This document shows positions 1-15,002 of a DNA stretch of 15,640 nt, piece by piece (the first letter of the stretch is position 1; the number at the start of each line of letters is the position of its first letter). Made by a program: the position numbers and the translations under genes. This DNA comes from a virus. Location of the stretch: UHGV virus genome UHGV-0333408; one strand, 5' to 3'. The notes below the pieces were generated by a model. That model did not search any database, was not told the origin of the DNA, and saw only the letters and a program-made list of their open reading frames with translations.

Positions 1-120
1 ATATCGAATGTGATTACAATCGGTGGCGGCGGCACAGTTGGTGTGGCGGCCTCAGTCCGGAACAATTTGAAAACAAGAACCTCGCTTAGGCCTGTGTCCA
101 TATTACGTGGGTAGGATCAT

Positions 121-419
121 AATGCGCTGAACTGTGCAGGATGCGAGCTGATTTTTGAAGACAAGATAAGCGGCACAAAGTCCGAAAGGCCGGGACTGAA
201 AAAACTGCTCAGGACATTATCGGCAGGTGACACTCTGGTTGTCTGGAAGCTGCTCGCGCACAGGGACGAATTGGTGGACGTCGTCCCAAACTTACACCAG
301 AACAATGGGCGCAGGCCGGGCGATTAATTGCATCAGGCGTTCCTCGCCAGAAGGTGGCGATCATCTATGATGTTGGTATATCGACACTGTATAAGAAGTT
401 TCCGGTCGGAGATAAATGA
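121..419 (+). pseudogene. Remnant of a Pin/Hin/Gin-family DNA invertase (serine recombinase): N-terminally truncated, with an internal out-of-frame deletion
   Basis: Frame A (121-252) reads NALNCAGCELIFEDKISGTKSERPGLKKLLRTLSAGDTLVVWKL, matching the N-terminal domain of Pin-type invertases from about residue 21. Frame B (about 253-419) reads ARAQGRIGGRRPKLTPEQWAQAGRLIASGVPRQKVAIIYDVGISTLYKKFPVGDK, matching the C-terminal HTH. A stop at 112-114 lies immediately upstream in frame, so the catalytic-serine N-terminus is missing, and about 55 codons between the two blocks are absent with a frame change. Confidence 0.8.
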
Positions 420-439
420 AACCGTAGCACGTCGTATGC
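402..439. repeat. Imperfect direct repeat, copy 1 (CCGGTC..GAAACCGTAGCACGTCGTATGC)
   Basis: Found by eye. Copy 2 at 1436-1468 shares CCGGTC, GAAA(A)CCGTAG, (A)CAC and GTATGC in the same order, about 26 of 33 positions. The two copies bracket the GIY-YIG gene. Confidence 0.5.
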
Positions 440-479
440 AAGAAGATCGTGCTGCGGTTTATGCTTATCACTTAAAGAC

Positions 480-1298
<819 letters not shown>

Positions 1299-1435
1299 TC
1301 ATTGCAAGGGCTCACAACCAGTAGTGTTGAGAAAACCATCGGAGAAATGAGGCTAAGCCTTTGAATTTACATAGTACAAAAAAGATACTTTTCCTCATAA
1401 TGTGAGCTAATTTTATGTTTCGTTTGATGATTGGA

Positions 1436-1468
1436 CCGGTCTCGAAAACCGTAGACACATAGTATGCG
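1436..1468. repeat. Imperfect direct repeat, copy 2
   Basis: See copy 1 at 402-439. Confidence 0.5.
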
Positions 1469-1659
1469 TTAATTTATGAACAAACTACTTGTCTGCTGTT
1501 TTTCTGTCATTAGCCGTATATAGAATGATTCTCTATGCCTAACAAAGCATCACCAGTGCTAGATTACGTTGTAGTCACTGTTTAAATATCCAGATAAAAC
1601 ATTTCCTTCTGGGTTGAATGAGTGATAAAGTTTCACCCATTAGACCCCTTGGAGGAATT

Positions 1660-3093
1660 ATGTCTGAATTTGAAGTGTTGGCACAGCATCTGCTGAAGGA
1701 AGCCGAGGCGGAAGAAAAGCTGCGACAGGAAAATGATAAAAAGCTTATCGAGAAAGTGCTGGAAATCTATGATCAGAAGTATGTGGCTGAATTACTGAGA
1801 AAAGTCGGAAAAAATGAGTGGAGCCGTGAAACCATTAACCGCTGGATTAATGGCAAGTGTTTACCAAAATCGTTGACTTCAGTAGAAGAGTCTCTTCTGC
1901 GTAAGATGCTACCAGAACCACCTGCAAACCATCCGGAATATGCTTTCCGCTTCATTGACTTATTTGCTGGAATTGGAGGGATACGGAAAGGTTTTGAGGC
2001 CATTGGAGGCCAGTGTGTTTTTACCAGTGAATGGAATAAAGATGCTGTGCGTACATACAAGGCCAACTGGTTTAACGATGAACAGGTGCATAAATTCAAT
2101 CTCGATATTCGGGAAGTCACGCTGAGTGATAAAACCGATGTATTGGAAACGGATGCTTATGCATATATTGATGAGCATGTGCCGGATCATGATGTGCTTC
2201 TTGCGGGGTTCCCGTGCCAGCCATTTAGCCTTGCTGGTGTTAGTAAGAAAAACTCACTTGGTCGTGCGCATGGTTTTGAATGTGAAGCACAAGGAACACT
2301 TTTTTTTGACGTGGCACGTATTATACGAGCAAAAAAACCGGCAATTTTTGTGCTGGAAAATGTCAAAAATCTGAAGAGCCATGATAAGGGTAAAACTTTC
2401 AAAGTCATTATGGAGACCCTTGACGAGCTGGGCTACGAAGTTGCCGATGCTGCAGAAATGGGAAAAAACGATCCAAAGATTATCGATGGGAAGCATTTTT
2501 TGCCTCAGCATCGTGAACGCATTGTTCTGGTCGGATTTAGACGAGATCTGAATATTCACAAGGGGTTTACCTTGCGTGATATCAGTCGTTTTTATCCGGA
2601 ACACCGCCCATCATTTGGTGAATTGCTGGAGCCTGTAGTCGACAGTAAATATATACTTACGCCAAAACTATGGGAGTACCTTTATAACTACGCCAAAAAG
2701 CATGCAGCCAAGGGGAATGGTTTTGGCTTTGGGTTGGTCAATCCTGAGAATAAGGAAAGCATTGCACGCACACTTTCTGCCAGATATCACAAAGACGGAT
2801 CAGAAATTCTTATTGATCGTGGTTGGGATATGGCAACGGGAGAGGCTGACTTTATGAATGAGAGTAATCAGGCTCGTCGACCACGCAGGCTGACTCCCCG
2901 AGAGTGCGCACGCCTTATGGGATTTGAAAAACCTGGAGGGAAACCATTCCGTATTCCGGTTTCAGATACTCAGTCATATCGGCAGTTCGGTAACTCAGTT
3001 GTGGTGCCAGTATTTGAAGCTGTTGCCAGACTTCTGGAACCCTATATCCTCAAAGCTGTTTCTGCTGATGCTGGTAAGACTGGGCAGCCTTGA
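1660..3093 (+). CDS. ecoRIIM: DNA (cytosine-5) methyltransferase, Dcm / M.EcoRII-like (CCWGG family), 477 aa
   Basis: C5-methyltransferase motifs are present: [15 protein letters not shown] (motif I), [11 protein letters not shown] (motif IV, catalytic Cys), ENV (motif VI), [10 protein letters not shown] (motif X). The whole protein is near-colinear with E. coli Dcm as I recall it. The start is placed at the ATG at 1660 (GGAGG four nt upstream) rather than the first in-frame ATG at 1618 (no SD), giving 477 aa, the length I recall for M.EcoRII. Confidence 0.92.
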
Positions 3094-3099
3094 GAACAT

Positions 3100-3122
3100 C
3101 TCCCGGCCTTTTAAGCCGGGAG
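3100..3122. terminator. Stem-loop between the convergent M and R genes (CTCCCGGC-cttttaa-GCCGGGAG)
   Basis: An 8-bp perfect inverted repeat lies exactly between the two stop codons (3091-3093 and 3128-3130). There is no clear U-tract on either side, so function as a terminator is inferred from position only. Confidence 0.4.
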
Positions 3123-3127
3123 TCAGC

Positions 3128-4342
3128 CTATGATAGTTCAGCGTAAAGCTCTATCAGCTCAGTAATGAATGCTCCGAGCGTTATTAATTCTTCTCTAACT
3201 GCTTCTGGGTATTTTTTATGTAAAGTTGATGGTACAACGAGTCTGACACCCGCATCTTTCATTTCTCGGTATTGTGCTGAAGAAACACCTTCTTGCAGTG
3301 TAAATAAATGTACCTGATGGATTTTATCTGCTTCATTCAGTATCTGACGCCAGCGATCTTTGCAGGTGGTCTTTACTGCCAGCATACGTAAGTTTTCTAC
3401 AGGAAATTCAACGTTATGATATGCCTCTGCTGAAGGAAACAGGAAATCTGGTTTTTTATTACCTTCAGTAACTGCCTGAGTGGAGAAATGCCGTAGTCCG
3501 TGCTCGATAAAAAGCTTCTCTAGGTGAAGTTCAAGTGATTTGCCTGCCCTTGATTTACGTCGATTACTGACAGAGTTGGCTAATGCAATAAACTCATCTA
3601 CAGAATCGAATCCTTTCTTAATAATATCAAGAACATGTAATTCCTCGACGAGTAGAAAAATATCATACTCGACACGCCGACGGTCAATCAGTTGCTCATC
3701 TGGATCCTTGGAGTTTTTAGCATAATGGCCAGCAGCATATTGAATAATTTCGTTTCCAGAAGGAAAACGCTTCTTCCAGTCTTCAGGAATAACATATTTA
3801 TGATTTACTGGAGTTTGCTGAAGAGACAATCCGCCCAAAATTTGTCCGGCAGGGCCGGAAATTAGGGTTCCAGGTATGATTTCGCCAATAGCAGACTCGA
3901 TGATATCCTCTTCATCGGGATTGACGCAGACCCATATATCTACCTCGGAACAGTCAGTGTTCTGTTCGTTTAACCTGAAAGCAAGAATTGTGAGGGCTCC
4001 TGTATTTTCAGGGTTCTGTAATGGACTTCCTCTCCCCCAGCGCGTAATTCTTTTTTCGTTTCGGGTCTTACCAAAATAACGGTTGTTGTAATAAATTGCG
4101 CGTGCTTGGGTATCAGGGCAATCATGGGATGATACATGCGCAGTAAGGAAGACTGAAGGGTTCAGTTCGCGAGTATGATTGATAGATGGAAAAAGCTTTT
4201 CAACGATATTTGAGGGGATATAAAGTCCGACCTGATGGCCACCTGTTGCGCCTGTGTCGTTTGCAGAAAGGCGTTTGATGTAGATAAAGTAATTCCCGCT
4301 TGCGATATCAAGCAGCCAGTTATGAAAAACCGACATATACAT
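3128..4342 (-). CDS. ecoRIIR: Type IIE restriction endonuclease, EcoRII-like, 404 aa
   Basis: 404-codon ORF convergent with the Dcm-like gene. Numbering from the first ATG puts Asp299 in KPDFLF, Lys324 in LAVKTT and Glu337 in ILNEADK, which are the catalytic residues I recall being published for EcoRII. The length equals the recalled 404 aa. A better Shine-Dalgarno (AAGGGA) serves the ATG two codons downstream at 4336, so the start is ambiguous by two codons. Confidence 0.88.
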   Translation of the reverse strand: MYMSVFHNWLLDIASGNYFIYIKRLSANDTGATGGHQVGLYIPSNIVEKLFPSINHTRELNPSVFLTAHVSSHDCPDTQARAIYYNNRYFGKTRNEKRITRWGRGSPLQNPENTGALTILAFRLNEQNTDCSEVDIWVCVNPDEEDIIESAIGEIIPGTLISGPAGQILGGLSLQQTPVNHKYVIPEDWKKRFPSGNEIIQYAAGHYAKNSKDPDEQLIDRRRVEYDIFLLVEELHVLDIIKKGFDSVDEFIALANSVSNRRKSRAGKSLELHLEKLFIEHGLRHFSTQAVTEGNKKPDFLFPSAEAYHNVEFPVENLRMLAVKTTCKDRWRQILNEADKIHQVHLFTLQEGVSSAQYREMKDAGVRLVVPSTLHKKYPEAVREELITLGAFITELIELYAELS

Positions 4343-4412
4343 CCCTTTGTTAACATACAGTCAGGGTTAACATTTTTCCATAGTTATAGATAAGCGGCTA
4401 GGAACTTAAGGG

Positions 4413-4447
4413 AAAAACAAAAAGCCCGCATAAGCGGGCTTTTGTGT
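4413..4447. terminator. Bidirectional rho-independent terminator (AAAAAGCCCGC-ataa-GCGGGCTTTTG)
   Basis: A 6-bp GC stem with a 4-nt loop, flanked by an A-run on the 5' side and a T-run on the 3' side, so it can terminate on both strands. It sits between the att core and the R gene start, insulating the R gene from read-through out of the prophage. Confidence 0.7.
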
Positions 4448-4570
4448 CACTCGAGAGCCGCGGCTCCTTTGCGTATCCTTTTTTGTCTCCTCACCGTCTG
4501 GTCGGTGTCCTGCTGAGACTGCTAACTTCCTGTTTTTGTTGGTGTTGTCCTTACACCGTCCAATCATGAT

Positions 4571-4607
4571 TGGTGGAGCTGGCGGGAGTTGAACCCGAGT
4601 CCGAAAT
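4571..4607 (-). other. 37-bp copy of the 3' end of tmRNA (ssrA), one mismatch; putative prophage att core (attL-type junction)
   Basis: The + strand reads TGGTGGAGCTGGCGGGAGTTGAACCCGAGTCCGAAAT. This is the reverse complement of the E. coli ssrA 3' terminus (...ATTTCGGACGCGGGTTCAACTCCCGCCAGCTCCACCA) with a single C-to-A change. No tmRNA body follows, because 4615-5439 is protein-coding, so this is a partial att-type duplicate and not the gene. Confidence 0.8.
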
Positions 4608-4614
4608 AATTTAA

Positions 4615-5439
4615 CTATTTGTTTTTATTGTAATCGTGTTCATTTATAAAATCTGCGTAGCTTTTGCGTATCCTTTGACGTATTGCAGCAGTCCTACTTT
4701 TATTGAGCTTTTTAAACGTAAAGCTTGCGACATAGTCTATTGAACCATTAAAAGTCTGCGAGTCGACCAATGCGACTTCGGTTTCAAATAATTCAACAAT
4801 ATGTTTACCACCAATATCTTGATATTTTATTTCTAACATTGGTCCTTTAGTTTTATAAATATCGATTTGACCCTTAAGGTTTAGCATTATATCGTTCATT
4901 AAAAAGACTAAGGAAAGTGTTTGAAATTTTAGCTCAGCCTTTGTTTTTTCTACACTGTATGGTAAAAAACATTGTATGAATTCACTTTCCTTATTAATTA
5001 TATGTGTCATCATTCGGAGGTTGCTTCTTGAATAAAAGATTAGGTCGTTGTCACTTTCTTCAAAATGATAATTAAATAAAAATCTAGATGGGTCGGCTGG
5101 AGCTTCAGCGGAATTTAATTTATATAGCCTCTGCTGAAGATATTGTGCATATTCTTGGTGGTTGAAAATCCATTTATACTCGATATTTACAGCAGCACCT
5201 AATCCCGGATTTATTACATTGATTTTATATTCGTTATAAGTATTCCCATTTAAAATGTCTAAATCAAAGTCGTTTTTTACATTGCATTTACCTTTGAAGT
5301 GAAAATTTTGAGGTATGATCTGTGGTCTATACATACTTCTTCTCTGCATTATGGCTTGATAAATACCACAAGCAGCAAGAAATGCTGATATCATTGCAGC
5401 AATGCTGGAAACTACAGCTATCCATCGATCTAAAGTCAT
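4615..5439 (-). CDS. Hypothetical membrane-anchored protein (274 aa), AT-rich moron between att core and int
   Basis: Uninterrupted ORF. One predicted N-terminal transmembrane helix (WIAVVSSIAAMISAFLAACGIY) is followed by a basic stretch (QRRSMYRPQ), suggesting a cytoplasmic C-terminal domain. GC content is visibly much lower than the flanking prophage backbone. No motif I recognise. Confidence 0.7.
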   Translation of the reverse strand: MTLDRWIAVVSSIAAMISAFLAACGIYQAIMQRRSMYRPQIIPQNFHFKGKCNVKNDFDLDILNGNTYNEYKINVINPGLGAAVNIEYKWIFNHQEYAQYLQQRLYKLNSAEAPADPSRFLFNYHFEESDNDLIFYSRSNLRMMTHIINKESEFIQCFLPYSVEKTKAELKFQTLSLVFLMNDIMLNLKGQIDIYKTKGPMLEIKYQDIGGKHIVELFETEVALVDSQTFNGSIDYVASFTFKKLNKSRTAAIRQRIRKSYADFINEHDYNKNK

Positions 5440-5476: not shown

Positions 5477-6652
5477 TTATTTTTTGATTGTTTTCAATGC
5501 ATTTGCTGATGTGTTGTTATCGTAATCCTTTAGATACCTACCATAGTGCCTAAATAGCATTTCAGGCCCTTTATGACCCATTTGAGCCGCCAACCAGAAT
5601 AAGTTCACACCACGACTGATTTGTCGAGTCGCGAAGGTATGGCGTGTTTGGTATGGATTTCGGTACCGAATACCAGCCTTTCGCAATGTTGGCACCCATG
5701 CTTTTTTTCTAATTGCATCAGCACTTGCCCAGGGCTTATTGGTCTTTGGATCTTCAAAGACAGTAGCATCCTTCATGAATGTAAATGGCTTCTGGTTTAT
5801 CAACGCCAACATTGCTTCTTCAGTCAGTTCAACTTTACGGGTACCGGCTTTTGTCTTTGTCCCTTTGATAACACCAACAACACTTGCGCTCTGGACATGG
5901 GCAGTTTTCCCAACAAAGTCGATATCTCGCCATCGAAGGGCACATAATTCAGAACTACGCAGGCCTGTATGTATAGCGAACCGGAACAGATTTTCCCATT
6001 GTTTGTTTGCGGCTGCTGCTAGTAATGCATCAACTTCTGCTGGTGATAGCGGATCAACCACGTAGCTGCTTTCTGCTTCTGACTTATCACTTTGGTAGCG
6101 CGAAGCAGTTACTAACGATACGGGGTTAATTTGAAGTACCCCATCGGTCACGGCTTCATCAAGTGCTGACCGCAGGAAAGATAACTGGTTGCGAATGGTT
6201 TTTAAGGTAGTTTTCTGGCTTTGAATCCACGCTTTCAGGGTTGCTGGTGTTAATTCACTTGCAGGGCAAATGTGAAGTGAGGCTAACGCACTACGGCATT
6301 TTTTATAACCACCAATCGTAGAGGGTGAAAGTTTTCTTGTTTCGCAGATTTCAAGATATTCGTCTAGGTACATTTTTACCGTTTTGCCTGCAGCAGCATT
6401 ACCAAAAATTTTCAAACGAGCAGAACTGGGAAAATATTCCGCATAAATGAATGTTCCCCTTTCGATCTTATTATGAATTTCGCCGAGTGTGCGCTCGGCG
6501 TATTTAATGTTCTTTGGTGTTACTTCCAGATTGGAAAGAGGCTCACGACATTTAACACCTTTGTAGGTGAAAGTTATATTGATCGTTTCGCCCTGGCGGT
6601 GTTTCCTGATTGTTACGCCGCGCGGTAGTTTGAGCAGTTTTGTCTGGCCCAT
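5477..6652 (-). CDS. int: Tyrosine-type site-specific integrase (lambda Int family), 391 aa
   Basis: The C-terminal catalytic region has the conserved RHTFAT and FRHYGRY (tyrosine nucleophile) blocks. GAGG lies 8 nt upstream of the ATG. The gene reads toward the ssrA-derived att core, with an excisionase-like gene overlapping its 5' end, as in lambda. Confidence 0.93.
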   Translation of the reverse strand: MGQTKLLKLPRGVTIRKHRQGETINITFTYKGVKCREPLSNLEVTPKNIKYAERTLGEIHNKIERGTFIYAEYFPSSARLKIFGNAAAGKTVKMYLDEYLEICETRKLSPSTIGGYKKCRSALASLHICPASELTPATLKAWIQSQKTTLKTIRNQLSFLRSALDEAVTDGVLQINPVSLVTASRYQSDKSEAESSYVVDPLSPAEVDALLAAAANKQWENLFRFAIHTGLRSSELCALRWRDIDFVGKTAHVQSASVVGVIKGTKTKAGTRKVELTEEAMLALINQKPFTFMKDATVFEDPKTNKPWASADAIRKKAWVPTLRKAGIRYRNPYQTRHTFATRQISRGVNLFWLAAQMGHKGPEMLFRHYGRYLKDYDNNTSANALKTIKK

Positions 6653-11133: not shown

Positions 11134-11677
11134 GCATCACTGGAAAGTGGAAAAACAACCTGACTGGTACGTGAAAGCTGTCAGAAAAACTATCGCGGCA
11201 TTGCCAGGTGGTTACGCTGAAGCTGCTGATTGGCTGGATGTAACAGAGAACGCATTATTTAATCGCCTTCGTGCCGATGGTGATCAGTTTTTTCCGTTGG
11301 GATGGGCAATGGTTTTACAGCGCGCGGCTGGCACTCACTACATTGCGGATGCTGTCGCACAGTCTGCTGGTGGGGTGTTCGTATCGCTTCCTGAAATTGA
11401 GGAAGTAGAGAACGCCGATATAAACCAGCGCCTGCTGGAAGTCATCGAACAGATCGGGAGTTACTCAAAGCAGATTCGTTCGGCAATCGAAGATGGGGTC
11501 GTGGAGCCACACGAGCAGACAGCAATTAATGATGAGTTGTATCTGTCAATTTCGAAGCTCCAGGAGCATGCAGCACTGGTCTACAAAATCTTTTGCGCTC
11601 CAGAAAAGAGTGACGCCCGCGAGTGTGCAGCTCCGGGCGTCGTGGCGTTTTGTGTCTGTGGAGAAACTAACGCATGA
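11126..11677 (+). CDS. CII-like regulator (CP76 / YdaT-like family), 183 aa
   Basis: GTG start with AGGAGG 7 nt upstream, overlapping the cro stop. Lies immediately downstream of cro, as CII and YdaT homologues do. The family call is from recalled resemblance and position, not a confirmed match. Confidence 0.55.
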   Translation: MGKHHWKVEKQPDWYVKAVRKTIAALPGGYAEAADWLDVTENALFNRLRADGDQFFPLGWAMVLQRAAGTHYIADAVAQSAGGVFVSLPEIEEVENADINQRLLEVIEQIGSYSKQIRSAIEDGVVEPHEQTAINDELYLSISKLQEHAALVYKIFCAPEKSDARECAAPGVVAFCVCGETNA

Positions 11678-12825
11678 ACAGTTTAACGGCAAATAACCGT
11701 TTGTCGCAACAACCGGTGGTCAGCGTCGCTGAACACCGGTTGTTATGGCATGAATGCAGATTACCAAATCACCTGGCTGTAAGTAACCACAGAGAACTTT
11801 ACCTGACTGTGGGGGGCGAGTTGTGCAGGAACTTAACCGCTGGTTTCGTGACGGAAGAGGACTTTATGTTCATGTTATTCGTTGGGAGCCAGAAACACAG
11901 CGCGTTATCTATCTTCGCAAAGACTACCCGCATGAGTGCTTTAGTCCTTTGTGGAAATTCAGGCGTGATTTTGTTGAGTGTGAAGGACCACCAGCACATT
12001 GATTCTGCCATTCCGGGACGTTACACTGTTCAGGCACCTTATAAAACGGGTGCCGGGCGTGGAAACCCGGAATTCACCAAAGCGCACAACCGCGCTCTTG
12101 CGGTTTTTTTGTGTCATGAGCAGCATTACGCCCAAATTATGGTGGGGCGTGCAGGGCCAACTTCGGTTGGGCCGGGTTCTTTGGTGACCGGTATTTCCAC
12201 CCCTGTACGTCTCACCACCAATAAGGTCGTGGAAAGCCTTGGTGGTGAGTTATTAAAAATCACCAAAGAGGCTGCCATCATGGCTACGATCCCAACCCTC
12301 ACTCAACCTGAAATTGCCATCGTTGATGGTCAGGCTGTTACTTCATCCTTGGCTGTTGCCAACTTCTTCTCCAAACGTCATGACGATGTACTGAAAAAGA
12401 TCCGCACGCTTGAATGCTCAGCATCATTCACTGCCCGCAATTTTTCGGTGAGTGATTACACTGATTGCACAGGTCGCAAACTTCCTTGCTACCAAATCAC
12501 ACGCGACGGTTTTGCGTTTCTTGCTATGGGTTTCACGGGTAAACGTGCTGCCCAGTTCAAGGAGGCATACATCAATGCCTTTAACCAGATGGAGAAACAG
12601 CTTTCAAAGCCCTCTGTACCGAGCGACGTTGCACATAACGCCAGCGTTCTCTGTTCCTACATTTCATCAATTCATCAGGTCTGGCTGCAGCAGCTTTATC
12701 CTATGTTGGCAAAAGCCGAATCTCCGCTGGCTGTTAGCTTGTATGACTATATTAATGATGCTTCGGCACTGGCCTGCCTCATAAATTTGTCGCTGAACCC
12801 TTCAGAGGTATGGGGGCGCAAATGA
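11674..12825 (+). CDS. Rha-domain phage regulatory protein (383 aa as read; N-terminal ~200 aa of uncertain coding status)
   Basis: The C-terminal ~180 aa (from the ATG at 12280, which has AAGAGG upstream) reads as a Rha / ORF6N-type domain (PTLTQPEIAIVDGQAVTSSLAVANFFSKRHDDVLKKIR ... ITRDGFAFLAMGFTGKRAAQFKEAYINAF). The N-terminal 200 aa has atypical composition, and an alternative-frame ORF exists at 11823-12002. Confidence 0.6.
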   Translation: MNSLTANNRLSQQPVVSVAEHRLLWHECRLPNHLAVSNHRELYLTVGGELCRNLTAGFVTEEDFMFMLFVGSQKHSALSIFAKTTRMSALVLCGNSGVILLSVKDHQHIDSAIPGRYTVQAPYKTGAGRGNPEFTKAHNRALAVFLCHEQHYAQIMVGRAGPTSVGPGSLVTGISTPVRLTTNKVVESLGGELLKITKEAAIMATIPTLTQPEIAIVDGQAVTSSLAVANFFSKRHDDVLKKIRTLECSASFTARNFSVSDYTDCTGRKLPCYQITRDGFAFLAMGFTGKRAAQFKEAYINAFNQMEKQLSKPSVPSDVAHNASVLCSYISSIHQVWLQQLYPMLAKAESPLAVSLYDYINDASALACLINLSLNPSEVWGRK

Positions 12826-13863: not shown

Positions 13864-14349
13864 ATGAGTCTTTTGAATGAAGTTCAGAAATTCATTGAAG
13901 CCCATCCGGGGTGTACTTCCGGAGACATTGCGGATGCTTTTGCAGGTTACTCACGGCAGCGCGTTCTGCAGTCAGCAAGCAAGTTACGTCAGAGTGGGCG
14001 TGTGGCTCACCGTTGTGAAGGAGATACACGCAGACATTTCCCACGCCTGACTGAGAGAGCGCAGGAGCCGGAACCACAACCAGTTCGTGAAACCAGACCT
14101 GTGCGCAATTTCTATGTCGGCACTAACGATCCCCGGGTGATTTTGTTGACCCGCCAGGCGGAAGAACTGGAGTCCAGGGGCTTATACCGTCGTGCTGCAA
14201 CGGTGTGGATGGCGGCATTCCGTGAAAGCCACTCCCAGCCAGAACGAAACAATTTTCTGGCGCATCGTGAGCGGTGCTTACGGAAAAGCAGCAAGCGCGC
14301 TGCATCGGGTGAAGAGTGGTATCTGTCAGGGAATTACGTGGGGGCTTAA
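13864..14349 (+). CDS. PerC-family-like transcriptional regulator (161 aa)
   Basis: The block AEELESRGLYRRAATVWMA matches the LE.RG.WRRAA.VW signature I recall for PerC/Pch proteins. An N-terminal winged-helix-like region precedes it. Confidence 0.5.
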   Translation: MSLLNEVQKFIEAHPGCTSGDIADAFAGYSRQRVLQSASKLRQSGRVAHRCEGDTRRHFPRLTERAQEPEPQPVRETRPVRNFYVGTNDPRVILLTRQAEELESRGLYRRAATVWMAAFRESHSQPERNNFLAHRERCLRKSSKRAASGEEWYLSGNYVGA

Positions 14350-15002
14350 TGAGTAATAAATATTGCCAGGCGCTGGTGGAGCTGCGGAACAAACCAGCCC
14401 ATGAACTGAAGGAAGTGGGCGATCAGTGGCGCACGCCGGACAACATTTTCTGGGGAATTAACACCCTGTTTGGCCCGTTTGTTCTGGATCTGTTTACTGA
14501 TGGTGATAACGCCAAATGTGCCGCTTATTACACTGCGGAAGACAACGCGCTGGCGCATGACTGGTCAGAACGTCTTGCGGAGCTTAAAGGTGCTGCCTTT
14601 GGTAATCCCCCGTACAGCCGCGCCAGTCAGCATGAGGGGCAATACATCACCGGCATGCGTTACATCATGAAACATGCCAGTGCTATGCGTGATAAAGGCG
14701 GGCGCTATGTTTTCCTGATCAAAGCTGCCACCAGCGAAGTGTGGTGGCCGGAAGATGCAGACCATATTGCTTTTATTCGCGGGCGTATTGGTTTTGAACT
14801 GCCTGTCTGGTTTATCCCGAAAGACGAGAAGCAGGTGCCGACAGGAGCTTTCTTCGCTGGTGCTATTGCTGTTTTTGACAAGACCTGGAAGGGACCGGCA
14901 ATCAGCTACATCGGGCGCGATGAACTTGAGGCATGTGGTGAGGCGTTTCTGGCGCAGGTTCGCCAGCAGGCGGAAAAACTGCTCAGGGAGATGGCGGCAT
15001 GA
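14349..15002 (+). CDS. Phage Dam-like N6-adenine DNA methyltransferase (217 aa)
   Basis: Catalytic NPPY motif (GAAFGNPPYSRAS). The ATG at 14349 overlaps the upstream stop (TAATG) and has GGGGG upstream. The ORF track begins earlier at 14316. Confidence 0.8.
   Translation: MSNKYCQALVELRNKPAHELKEVGDQWRTPDNIFWGINTLFGPFVLDLFTDGDNAKCAAYYTAEDNALAHDWSERLAELKGAAFGNPPYSRASQHEGQYITGMRYIMKHASAMRDKGGRYVFLIKAATSEVWWPEDADHIAFIRGRIGFELPVWFIPKDEKQVPTGAFFAGAIAVFDKTWKGPAISYIGRDELEACGEAFLAQVRQQAEKLLREMAA

What the first reader, a model, noticed from the sequence alone, without database searches (positions are those of the whole stretch)
1618..4342. Complete chromosomal EcoRII-like R-M pair with no vsr partner
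The methyltransferase is Dcm-like along its whole length and carries all the C5-methyltransferase motifs. The convergent 404-aa ORF places Asp, Lys and Glu at positions 299, 324 and 337 in KPD / AVK / NEAD contexts, which are the EcoRII catalytic residues as I recall them. Neither gene is disrupted. There is no vsr gene after the methyltransferase, unlike the chromosomal dcm-vsr operon. The M gene has two in-frame starts (1618 and 1660) and only 1660 has a strong SD. Because host Dcm has the same specificity, a dcm-plus host can tolerate loss of this M gene, which affects how addictive the system is. EcoRII itself is a known system; the context is what is notable.
Basis: partly seen in the sequence, partly recalled or inferred. 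Interest (0 to 1): 0.45.

Follow-up and report, generated by a model that had tools for sequence, protein, structure and literature searches.

The report
Prophage-borne EcoRII-type restriction-modification pair
The two genes are an intact, very common E. coli copy of the well-known EcoRII restriction-modification system, carried as cargo at the attachment-site end of a temperate phage next to a second known restriction gene, so the finding is real but ordinary.

Summary
Window 1660-3093 (+) encodes a 477-aa C5-methyltransferase and 3128-4342 (-) a 402/404-aa endonuclease, convergent and undisrupted. The endonuclease aligns without gaps to EcoRII (PDB 1NA6, E 3e-243; 87% identical to a plasmid EcoRII). 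All 28 published catalytic, CC:GG-recognition, base-pocket and effector-domain residues are conserved. The methyltransferase is 90.6% identical to the plasmid EcoRII methylase and only 64% to K-12 Dcm.

The interpretation needs correcting. The pair lies on a temperate-phage arm: IS3-disrupted pin invertase, CMoRE/PD-T4-3 (a type IV enzyme for hmC DNA), M, R, terminator, then a 37-nt ssrA 3' fragment (att core). A second cargo gene, an integrase and a lambdoid early region follow. Lack of vsr matches the one plasmid EcoRII locus examined and is covered by host dcm-vsr, present in 5359 of 5426 complete E. coli genomes. Both proteins are exact RefSeq entries. This allele occurs in about 261 of 5426 complete E. 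coli genomes, usually abutting ssrA, and in at least 33 IMG/VR viral contigs. That Dcm neutralises EcoRII addiction is published.

Verdict: already known, low interest. Open point: whether the junction is a phage attP or two tandem prophages.

The parts
1..118 (+). Right end of an IS3-family insertion sequence (transposase C-terminus, bases 3-89, then terminal repeat), inserted into the pin gene
   Evidence: Frame-3 peptide [28 protein letters not shown] hits Pfam rve_2 at E 7.6e-6, above the cut-off. Bases 1-119 have no counterpart in any related locus fetched.
119..419 (+). Remnant of a pin-type tail-fibre invertase gene: lacks about 18 N-terminal codons and has an internal deletion of about 180 nt
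   Evidence: Translation matches pinE of L005 at residues 19-63 (frame 1) and 127-184 (frame 3). Split BLAST pieces 120-252 and 243-4597 appear in related loci.
480..1253 (-). CMoRE / PD-T4-3: GIY-YIG type IV restriction endonuclease specific for 5hmC and glucosyl-5hmC DNA; neighbour of the R-M pair, separate module
   Evidence: PADLOC PD-T4-3 E 8.7e-140; PDB 9U75 E 3.3e-170; function from PMC12923530. Adjacent to this M gene in 239 complete E. coli genomes; present alone in many more (823 in total).
1577..1659 (+). Conserved leader/promoter region of the methylase gene, including the upstream in-frame ATG at 1618 and the GGAGG Shine-Dalgarno at 1651-1655
   Evidence: Homology to a plasmid EcoRII locus starts at about 1577; both ATGs and the SD are conserved. 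An operator function is inferred from the published M.EcoRII autorepression (PMC12707154) and was not tested here.
1660..3093 (+). C5-cytosine methyltransferase, M.EcoRII orthologue (477 aa; the ORF extends to 1618)
   Evidence: Identical to RefSeq WP_001288444.1. 90.6% identical to the methylase of the plasmid pACN001-A EcoRII locus, 64% to K-12 Dcm. NCBIfam PRK10458 927 bits against a cut-off of 710. Pfam DNA_meth_N + DNA_methylase. dN/dS 0.033 against the plasmid gene.
3100..3122 (.). G+C-rich hairpin between the convergent stop codons (8-bp stem, no U-tract)
   Evidence: Folds on both strands (-16 and -20 kcal/mol, z -2.0 and -2.7). The stem is conserved in the plasmid EcoRII locus although the flanks diverge.
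3128..4342 (-). EcoRII-type type IIE restriction endonuclease (404 aa; 402 aa from ATG 4336)
   Evidence: Gapless alignment to PDB 1NA6, E 3e-243. 86.9% identical to the plasmid EcoRII. 28 of 28 functional residues conserved (residues from PMC2770665). Identical to WP_000110239.1. dN/dS 0.048.
4420..4443 (-). Intrinsic terminator (10-bp stem plus T-run). In lysogens it stands between ssrA and the co-directional R gene.
   Evidence: Terminator scan; -22.3 kcal/mol, z -3.9.
4571..4607 (-). 37-nt 3' fragment of ssrA (tmRNA) = att core, with one mismatch (A4598 against C in ssrA)
   Evidence: Alignment with R-to-ssrA junctions of two lysogens. BLAST break-points at 4607 (R-M side) and 4570 (int side). 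Weak Rfam tmRNA hit at 4571-4695, E 5e-5.
4615..5439 (-). ORF274: low-GC cargo gene of unknown function (N-terminal membrane helix) between att core and integrase; not part of the R-M pair
   Evidence: PHROG 7259 (unknown function) only; no Pfam, PADLOC, NCBIfam or PDB hit. GC 0.32-0.35. The same slot holds DarTG or other cargo in related prophages.
5477..6652 (-). Tyrosine integrase of the lambdoid (mEp460-like early region) prophage
   Evidence: Pfam Arm-DNA-bind_2 + Phage_integrase. Found at the ssrA-distal end of prophages in 8 other assemblies.

Best explanation
This is a functional EcoRII-type (type IIE, CCWGG-specific, 5mC-sensitive) restriction-modification pair carried as accessory cargo ('moron') on the tail-fibre/att-proximal arm of a temperate E. 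coli phage that integrates at the 3' end of ssrA.

Shown here:
- Both genes are intact.
- R keeps every published catalytic, CC:GG-recognition, flipped-base-pocket and N-terminal effector-domain residue of EcoRII.
- M is an M.EcoRII orthologue with all C5-methyltransferase motifs and the N-terminal domain of that subfamily.
- Both genes have evolved under strong purifying selection since splitting from the plasmid EcoRII.
- The pair travels with phage tail-fibre genes and abuts an att core.

Inferred from the EcoRII literature:
- M methylates the inner C of CCWGG and represses its own promoter.
- R binds one unmethylated CCWGG with its N-domain as an allosteric effector and cuts another with its C-domain dimer.
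- A lysogen would therefore destroy incoming DNA that carries at least two unmethylated CCWGG sites, that is, DNA from dcm-minus sources.
- The adjacent CMoRE/PD-T4-3 enzyme cuts 5hmC or glucosyl-hmC DNA but not 5mC DNA. The two systems are therefore compatible and cover complementary cytosine states.
- No vsr is needed on the element because nearly every E. coli host supplies dcm-vsr. For the same reason the pair cannot act as an effective addiction module in these hosts.

In this particular window the arm is decayed (IS3 insertion and a deletion in pin). The R-M side is joined through the att core to the integrase end of a lambdoid prophage. The most likely cause is that a second phage integrated into ssrA in front of an older R-M-bearing prophage.
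For: - Identity of R.
- Identity of M.
- Exact RefSeq proteins.
- Purifying selection: dN/dS 0.033 for M and 0.048 for R, at dS about 1.65.
- R and M kept together: 263 records each at 99% identity or more, with only one truncated R seen.
- Phage context: pin remnant, CMoRE, att core, integrase, lambdoid early region.
- Same cassette at the tail-fibre end of prophages with Mu-like or lambda-like tails, next to smpB-ssrA.
- Same cassette in a 43.7-kb circular phage genome, between tail genes and attP-dinI-int.
- At least 33 IMG/VR viral contigs carry the identical R.
- mEp460 map: Stf - dinI - int, so the cassette occupies the lambda b-region-like slot.
- Host dcm-vsr in 5359 of 5426 genomes.
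- CMoRE ignores 5mC (PMC12923530).
- EcoRII mechanism and methylation sensitivity (PMC2770665).
- M.EcoRII autorepression (PMC12707154).
Against: - No enzyme activity, methylation or expression was measured, so CCWGG specificity rests on 87-91% identity and conserved contact residues.
- No sigma-70-like promoter scoring 9 of 12 or better was found in the 77 bp between the terminator and the R start. How R is transcribed is unknown.
- Homology to the plasmid R-M stops about 10 bp upstream of the R start, so R regulation may differ.
- None of 50,697 deposited phage genomes carries this pair. Packaging in an infectious virion is therefore inferred from prophage and circular-element contexts only.
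- Because about 99% of E. coli are dcm+, the defensive value against coliphages grown on E. coli should be small. This leaves open why the pair is so well conserved.
Confidence: 0.85

Rival explanations
1. The pair is mainly a selfish addiction (post-segregational killing) module that stabilises the prophage or island, rather than a defence system.
For: EcoRII causes post-segregational killing, and unstable M mutants enhance it (PMC3874152). The R-M pair is retained even where the surrounding phage arm is decayed: IS3 in pin here, and truncated prophages of about 17-19 kb in strains 13C1079T and ETEC1716.
Against: Host Dcm has the same specificity and abolishes killing after EcoRII loss (Takahashi 2002, as cited in PMC3874152; PMC3424554). 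dcm-vsr is present in 98.8% of complete E. coli genomes, so addiction cannot operate in nearly all hosts that carry the cassette.
Confidence: 0.1
2. The pair is silent or functionally decaying. The methylase is redundant with Dcm and the endonuclease is unexpressed or inactive cargo that hitch-hikes with the phage and CMoRE.
For: No recognisable promoter for R was found. A terminator stands directly upstream of R. Defence value in a dcm+ species appears low. The adjacent phage arm is decayed in this window.
Against: dN/dS of 0.03-0.05 over saturated synonymous divergence from the plasmid EcoRII. All 28 functional residues are intact. R and M copy numbers are equal (263 and 263 records), with one truncated R seen. 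The exact protein is in 10,426 assembly blocks.
Confidence: 0.12
3. The genes serve the phage's lytic cycle. M pre-methylates progeny DNA so that it escapes plasmid-borne EcoRII in the next host even after growth in dcm-minus cells. R degrades unmethylated host or competitor DNA.
For: A comparable role was proposed for the EcoRII-C/Vsr/methylase module of Burkholderia phage KL3 (PMC3091744). Plasmid EcoRII-type systems are common in Enterobacterales: 566 plasmid records cover at least 80% of the region.
Against: The cassette lies in the b-region-like accessory slot, outside the early and late operons, with its own leader and terminators. This position is typical of lysogen-expressed morons. 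Most E. coli already methylate CCWGG.
Confidence: 0.1
4. Structural alternative for this window: the R | att core | ORF274-int junction is the attP of a single phage genome (free, excised or circular), not a junction between two tandem prophages.
For: Related prophages in 13C1079T and ETEC1716 have a near-identical integrase/early region at one end and the CMoRE-M-R arm at the other, abutting ssrA. Excision of such a prophage would give exactly this order. A circular 43.7-kb element shows R - attP - cargo - int.
Against: The arm is damaged here by an IS3-family insertion and a deletion in pin. In 8 other assemblies the ORF274-int end faces whatever lay downstream of ssrA: other islands or the native flank. 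An R gene preceded by a P4-like satellite at this site shows that stacking of elements occurs (L019). The junction 40-mer was not found in IMG/VR or GTDB representative genomes, and no IMG/VR contig with R continues into ORF274.
Confidence: 0.3

Closest known systems
EcoRII restriction-modification system of enterobacterial plasmids (R.EcoRII PDB 1NA6/3HQF/3HQG; M.EcoRII)
   Same: Same two-gene convergent layout with a conserved hairpin between the stop codons. R has the same length (404 aa), aligns without gaps and is 86.9% identical; M is 477 aa and 90.6% identical. All catalytic and DNA-contact residues are conserved, as are the 83-bp methylase leader and SD. Neither locus has vsr.
   Different: DNA is only about 80% identical. 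Homology ends about 10 bp upstream of the R start, so the R promoter region is different. The carrier is a temperate phage arm next to an ssrA att site rather than a plasmid, and the left neighbour is CMoRE.
E. coli chromosomal dcm-vsr operon
   Same: Same methyltransferase subfamily (NCBIfam PRK10458), same N-terminal domain, and presumably the same CCWGG target.
   Different: Only 64% identical. Dcm is an orphan with an overlapping vsr and no endonuclease. Here there is a cognate endonuclease and no vsr.
EcoRII-C endonuclease / Vsr / methylase module of Burkholderia phage KL3
   Same: An EcoRII-family R-M carried by a temperate phage as an accessory module (PMC3091744).
   Different: The KL3 enzyme matches only residues 169-395 at 39% identity (no N-terminal effector domain matched). 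Its genes are co-directional and it includes its own vsr. The E. coli cassette has full-length EcoRII and relies on host Vsr.
Prophage-encoded defence cargo at att-proximal hotspots (e.g. PD-T4-3/CMoRE, DarTG next to integrase)
   Same: Variable accessory genes flank attP on both sides. CMoRE-M-R sits on the tail-fibre side. ORF274, DarTG or AAA-ATPase+methylase sit on the int side in related prophages.
   Different: Nothing essential; this is one more instance. The tight pairing of CMoRE with this R-M (239 of about 261 genomes) did not turn up in the papers I searched.

Membership tests
EcoRII restriction endonuclease family (type IIE) | Two-domain architecture: N-terminal B3-like effector domain plus C-terminal PD-(D/E)XK catalytic domain | tested here: met
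   Pfam EcoRII-N (18-165, E 3.9e-61) and EcoRII-C (229-393, E 2.4e-71). Full-length gapless alignment to 1NA6.
EcoRII restriction endonuclease family (type IIE) | Active-site residues Glu271, Asp299, Lys324, Glu337 | tested here: met
   All four present at the same positions. Residue list from PMC2770665.
EcoRII restriction endonuclease family (type IIE) | CC:GG recognition triad Lys328-Asp329-Arg330 plus Asn260, and flipped-base pocket Arg222, Glu225, Tyr226, Phe229, Arg265, Ala266 | tested here: met
   All ten residues conserved.
EcoRII restriction endonuclease family (type IIE) | Effector-domain contacts Asn28, His36, Gln37, Tyr41, Arg81, Tyr85, Lys92, Thr93, Arg94, Glu96, Arg98, Thr100, Arg101 | tested here: met
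   All conserved. N-domain 148 of 172 residues identical to the plasmid EcoRII.
EcoRII restriction endonuclease family (type IIE) | Cleaves unmethylated CCWGG only when a second site is bound; blocked by 5mC at the inner C | not testable with these tools
   Needs enzyme assays. Inferred from sequence conservation only.
M.EcoRII / Dcm subfamily of C5-cytosine methyltransferases | Conserved motifs I (FxGxG), IV (PCQ), VI (ENV), VIII (QxRxR), IX (RE), X (GN) and the N-terminal DNA_meth_N domain | tested here: met
   FAGIGG, PCQ, ENV, QHRER, TPRE and GNS seen in the translation. Pfam PF00145 E 4.7e-78 and PF18284 E 7.1e-27. NCBIfam PRK10458 927 bits, above the 710 cut-off.
M.EcoRII / Dcm subfamily of C5-cytosine methyltransferases | Methylates the inner cytosine of CCWGG; represses its own promoter | not testable with these tools
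   90.6% identity to the plasmid EcoRII methylase and a conserved 83-bp leader make both likely. The primary paper on the operator (PMC332081) is not held.
dcm-vsr type operon | A vsr (very-short-patch repair endonuclease) gene overlapping or following the methyltransferase gene | tested here: not met
   tblastn with K-12 Vsr: no hit better than E 1.5 in the window. The gene after M is the convergent R gene.
Temperate-phage accessory cargo (moron) at the att site | Lies between tail-fibre genes and attP/att core, is present in a circular or excisable phage genome, and is variable among otherwise related phages | tested here: met
   pin remnant and att core flank it here. It lies between tail genes and attP-int in circular NZ_CP081704.1. 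It is found with Mu-like and lambda-like tails. It is absent from mEp460, which has the same early region.
CMoRE / PD-T4-3 (neighbouring gene 480-1253) | Full-length similarity to the characterised GIY-YIG 5hmC/5ghmC-dependent endonuclease | tested here: met
   PADLOC PD-T4-3 covers 1-256 of 257 residues, E 8.7e-140. PDB 9U75 E 3.3e-170.

The most novel reading that the evidence does not exclude
CMoRE (cuts 5hmC and glucosyl-hmC DNA, ignores 5mC) and the EcoRII-type pair (cuts unmethylated CCWGG, marks self with 5mC) may form a co-selected, phage-borne 'cytosine-state' restriction cassette. It would move as one unit between phages with different tails and integrases and would be kept by selection for combined coverage: unmodified foreign DNA plus T-even phages. 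This would explain why a CCWGG R-M that looks redundant in a dcm+ species is conserved so strictly. A weaker add-on: because integration places R co-directionally just downstream of the very strongly transcribed ssrA gene, terminator read-through could supply lysogen-specific R expression.
Probability: 0.3. Interest if true: 0.3.

Novelty: already known. Interest (0 to 1): 0.12.

Why it matters
The finding matters little on its own. EcoRII is a textbook type IIE system, and these exact proteins are already in RefSeq and in thousands of assemblies.

The useful outcome is a corrected annotation of the locus. It is phage cargo at the ssrA attachment site, paired with the recently characterised CMoRE type IV enzyme, in roughly 5% of complete E. 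coli genomes, including ST131-labelled isolates.

That raises one modest question. Why is an R-M system whose target is already methylated by the host's own Dcm kept intact under strong purifying selection in a dcm+ species?

For practical work, strains with this cassette should restrict DNA prepared in dcm-minus cloning hosts.

Tried and rejected
1. vsr anywhere in the window or beside a plasmid EcoRII locus: tblastn negative.
2. CCWGG avoidance as a sign of restriction pressure: none. 35 sites observed against 23.8 expected; 2 against 3.4 in the two genes.
3. Locating the source contig:
   - A 40-mer across the core/ORF274 junction gave no exact match in IMG/VR or GTDB representative genomes.
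   - No complete E. coli genome covers the junction.
   - No IMG/VR contig with R continues into ORF274.
   - CP057893 is not in the annotated collection.
   - Tandem prophages versus attP therefore stays open.
4. The idea that the GIY-YIG neighbour might be a Vsr substitute: rejected. It is CMoRE/PD-T4-3, a characterised 5hmC-dependent type IV enzyme that works as a single gene, and it occurs without this R-M in most genomes that have it.
5. Reading the primary paper on the M.EcoRII operator: PMC332081 is not held.
6. ORF274:
   - No Pfam, PADLOC, NCBIfam or PDB hit.
   - The single-sequence AlphaFold model is unusable (pLDDT 37.8), so no fold search was run.
7. My first count of 376 genomes mixed the prophage allele with plasmid-type copies at about 80% identity. 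Gene-by-gene searches give about 261 genomes for this allele.
8. A promoter for R between the terminator and the start codon: nothing reached the scan threshold.
Full report
**Observation**

The window has an ORF at 1618-3093 (+), with a second in-frame ATG at 1660, and a convergent ORF at 3128-4342 (-). Neither has an internal stop. The 34-bp spacer holds an 8-bp G+C-rich hairpin at 3100-3122 that folds on both strands. Its stem is conserved in a plasmid EcoRII locus although the flanks differ.

The 404-aa product aligns end to end without gaps to EcoRII (PDB 1NA6, E 3e-243).

**Identity of the endonuclease**

I took the functional residues from the EcoRII-DNA co-crystal paper (PMC2770665):
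- active site: E271, D299, K324, E337
- CC:GG readers: K328, D329, R330, N260
- flipped-base pocket: R222, E225, Y226, F229, R265, A266
- effector-domain contacts: N28, H36, Q37, Y41, R81, Y85, K92, T93, R94, E96, R98, T100, R101
- also R88, the residue changed in the 1NA6 crystal as I recall it

All 28 are conserved. Against a plasmid copy (pACN001-A) the protein is 86.9% identical. The substitutions are spread over both domains. dN/dS is 0.048 at saturated dS of about 1.65.

**Identity of the methyltransferase**

From ATG 1660 it is 477 aa, the same length as the plasmid EcoRII methylase. It is 90.6% identical to that protein and only 64% identical to K-12 Dcm. It passes the NCBIfam PRK10458 cut-off (927 bits against 710). 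It has the DNA_meth_N and DNA_methylase domains and motifs I, IV, VI, VIII, IX and X. dN/dS against the plasmid gene is 0.033.

So it is an M.EcoRII orthologue. 'Dcm-like' is true only at subfamily level.

Start 1660 has GGAGG four bases upstream and matches RefSeq WP_001288444.1 exactly. However, the 1618 ATG and its open frame are also conserved in the plasmid locus. Homology to that locus begins at about 1577. The conserved 83-bp leader is where the published M.EcoRII autorepression would act (PMC12707154). I could not check the operator sequence because the primary paper is not held.

R is identical to WP_000110239.1, which RefSeq starts at the third codon (4336). That start has the better AAGGG spacing.

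**Context**

The window is not plain chromosome. From left to right it contains:

| Coordinates | Feature |
|---|---|
| 1-118 | Right end of an IS3-family element (rve_2 hit) |
| 119-419 | pin-type tail-fibre invertase gene, cut by that IS and carrying an internal deletion of about 180 nt |
| 480-1253 (-) | GIY-YIG protein identified as PD-T4-3/CMoRE (PADLOC E 8.7e-140; PDB 9U75 E 3.3e-170) |
| 1660-3093, 3128-4342 | M and R |
| 4420-4443 (-) | Strong intrinsic terminator |
| 4571-4607 (-) | Last 37 nt of ssrA (tmRNA), one mismatch |
| 4615-5439 | Low-GC gene of unknown function (ORF274) |
| 5477-6652 | Tyrosine integrase |
| from about 7047 | Lambdoid early region 96-98% identical to phage mEp460 and several Stx phages |

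CMoRE is a type IV enzyme that cleaves 5hmC and glucosyl-5hmC DNA but neither 5mC nor unmodified DNA (PMC12923530).

**The cassette elsewhere**

In complete E. coli genomes the stretch CMoRE-M-R-terminator runs straight into a full ssrA gene next to smpB. It sits at the tail-fibre end of prophages that have either Mu-like baseplates or lambda-like J/Lom/Stf tails.

In NZ_CP081704.1, a 43.7-kb circular record labelled 'plasmid', the order is tail genes - acyltransferase - CMoRE - M - R - attP - dinI - int - early genes. That record is a circular phage genome. Phage mEp460, which shares the early region but lacks the cassette, goes Stf - dinI - int. The R-M pair therefore occupies the accessory slot equivalent to the lambda b region.

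**Tandem prophages or attP**

The R | core | ORF274-int junction in this window would arise in either of two ways. It could be the attP of one phage. Or a second phage could have integrated into ssrA in front of an older R-M-bearing prophage.

I favour the second reading, at roughly 0.6-0.7, for three reasons:
- The R-M arm is decayed here (IS3 insertion, pin deletion).
- In eight other assemblies the ORF274-int end faces whatever lay downstream of ssrA.
- Stacking of elements at this site is seen elsewhere (L019).

The exact junction was not found in any collection I could search. Either way the pair is phage-derived cargo.

**The missing vsr**

Vsr is indeed absent. It is equally absent from the plasmid EcoRII locus I examined. 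dcm-vsr is present in 5359 of 5426 complete E. coli genomes, so the host supplies very-short-patch repair.

A phage-borne EcoRII-family module that does carry its own vsr is known from Burkholderia phage KL3 (PMC3091744). Its endonuclease matches only the C-terminal part of this R at 39% identity.

It is also established: Dcm attenuates killing after loss of EcoRII (Takahashi et al. 2002, as cited in PMC3874152; PMC3424554).

**Prevalence**

- This allele (99% identity or more) of R is in 263 records (261 genomes), and of M in 263 records, out of 5426 complete genomes. Only one truncated R was seen.
- My earlier figure of 376 genomes also counted plasmid-type copies at about 80% identity.
- CMoRE is directly adjacent to M in 239 genomes. 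CMoRE itself is in 823, so the two are frequent but separable neighbours.
- The exact 402-aa R protein is listed in 10,426 blocks of the assembly collection. At least 33 IMG/VR viral contigs encode an identical R.
- 566 plasmid records carry the classical allele over at least 80% of the region.
- No deposited phage genome (50,697 records) carries this pair. tblastn finds only KL3 and two metagenomic fragments.

**Mechanism**

Shown: intact genes, conserved functional residues, purifying selection, phage carriage.

Inferred from the EcoRII literature:
- M methylates the inner C of CCWGG and autoregulates.
- R needs two unmethylated sites, binding one through its N-domain as an effector and cutting the other through its C-domain dimer.
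- A lysogen would restrict DNA from dcm-minus sources.
- CMoRE covers hypermodified T-even DNA and ignores the 5mC that M makes, so the two neighbours are compatible and complementary.

Unresolved:
- No promoter-like site was found for R in the 77 bp after the terminator.
- The R upstream region is unrelated to that of the plasmid system.
- The benefit in a species that is about 99% dcm+ is unclear.
- CCWGG sites are not depleted in the window or in the two genes.

**Verdict**

This is a real, intact and almost certainly functional EcoRII-type R-M pair. It is an already catalogued and very common allele. Its 'notable context' is the ordinary one of prophage accessory cargo at an att site. Novelty: already known. 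Interest: low.

The only mildly new angle is the tight pairing with CMoRE, together with the strict conservation of a seemingly redundant specificity.

Noticed in passing
window 480-1253 (-): The left neighbour of the methylase is CMoRE/PD-T4-3, a GIY-YIG type IV restriction enzyme for 5hmC and glucosyl-5hmC DNA (PDB 9U75, E 3e-170). It lies next to this M gene in 239 complete E. coli genomes and occurs in 823 overall.
   Followed up: yes
window 1-419: The first 118 bases are the right end of an IS3-family insertion sequence (rve_2 hit). It cuts a pin-type invertase gene, which also has an internal deletion of about 180 nt. The phage arm carrying the R-M pair is therefore decayed in this source.
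   Followed up: yes
window 4571-4607 (-), and 4419-4570: A 37-nt 3' fragment of ssrA (att core; A4598 differs from the C in ssrA) lies between the R gene and ORF274/int. The 150 bp on the R side resemble the native ssrA downstream flank (by my estimate, about 92% identical) but are a distinct allele that travels with the R-M arm.
   Followed up: yes
window 4615-5439 (-): ORF274 is a low-GC (0.32-0.35) gene with an N-terminal membrane helix and no Pfam, PADLOC, NCBIfam or PDB match (PHROG 7259, unknown function). It sits in the att-int slot where related prophages carry DarTG, an AAA-ATPase plus adenine methylase, or STAS-like genes. It is a candidate uncharacterised defence or exclusion gene. 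The single-sequence AlphaFold model was unusable (pLDDT 37.8).
   Followed up: partly
window 12021-12222 (+): Rfam finds isrK (67.9 bits) and C4 antisense RNA (83.6 bits), plus a weak match to their a1/b1 target. All lie inside the 383-aa 'Rha/ASH' ORF at 11674-12825. This looks like a P1/P7-type antisense-controlled antirepressor module in the early-right operon.
   Followed up: no
window 14316-15002 (+): A second, orphan DNA methyltransferase lies in the same window: a phage Dam-type N6-adenine methylase (PF05869 in the matching genes of related loci).
   Followed up: no
L004 (NZ_CP081704.1, 43,680 bp circular 'plasmid unnamed3'); also NZ_CP081794.1: These records, typed as non-mobilizable plasmids, appear to be circular temperate-phage genomes. 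L004 has tail sheath/tube and baseplate genes, CMoRE, M, R, attP, dinI, int, repressor and cro. Its att core is a different tRNA-like 3' end, not ssrA.
   Followed up: partly
L005 and L024 (R gene next to paoABCD): In a few assemblies the same R-M arm, including 25 nt of the ssrA-like core, abuts the pao aldehyde oxidoreductase genes instead of ssrA. This suggests a secondary integration site or a rearrangement.
   Followed up: no
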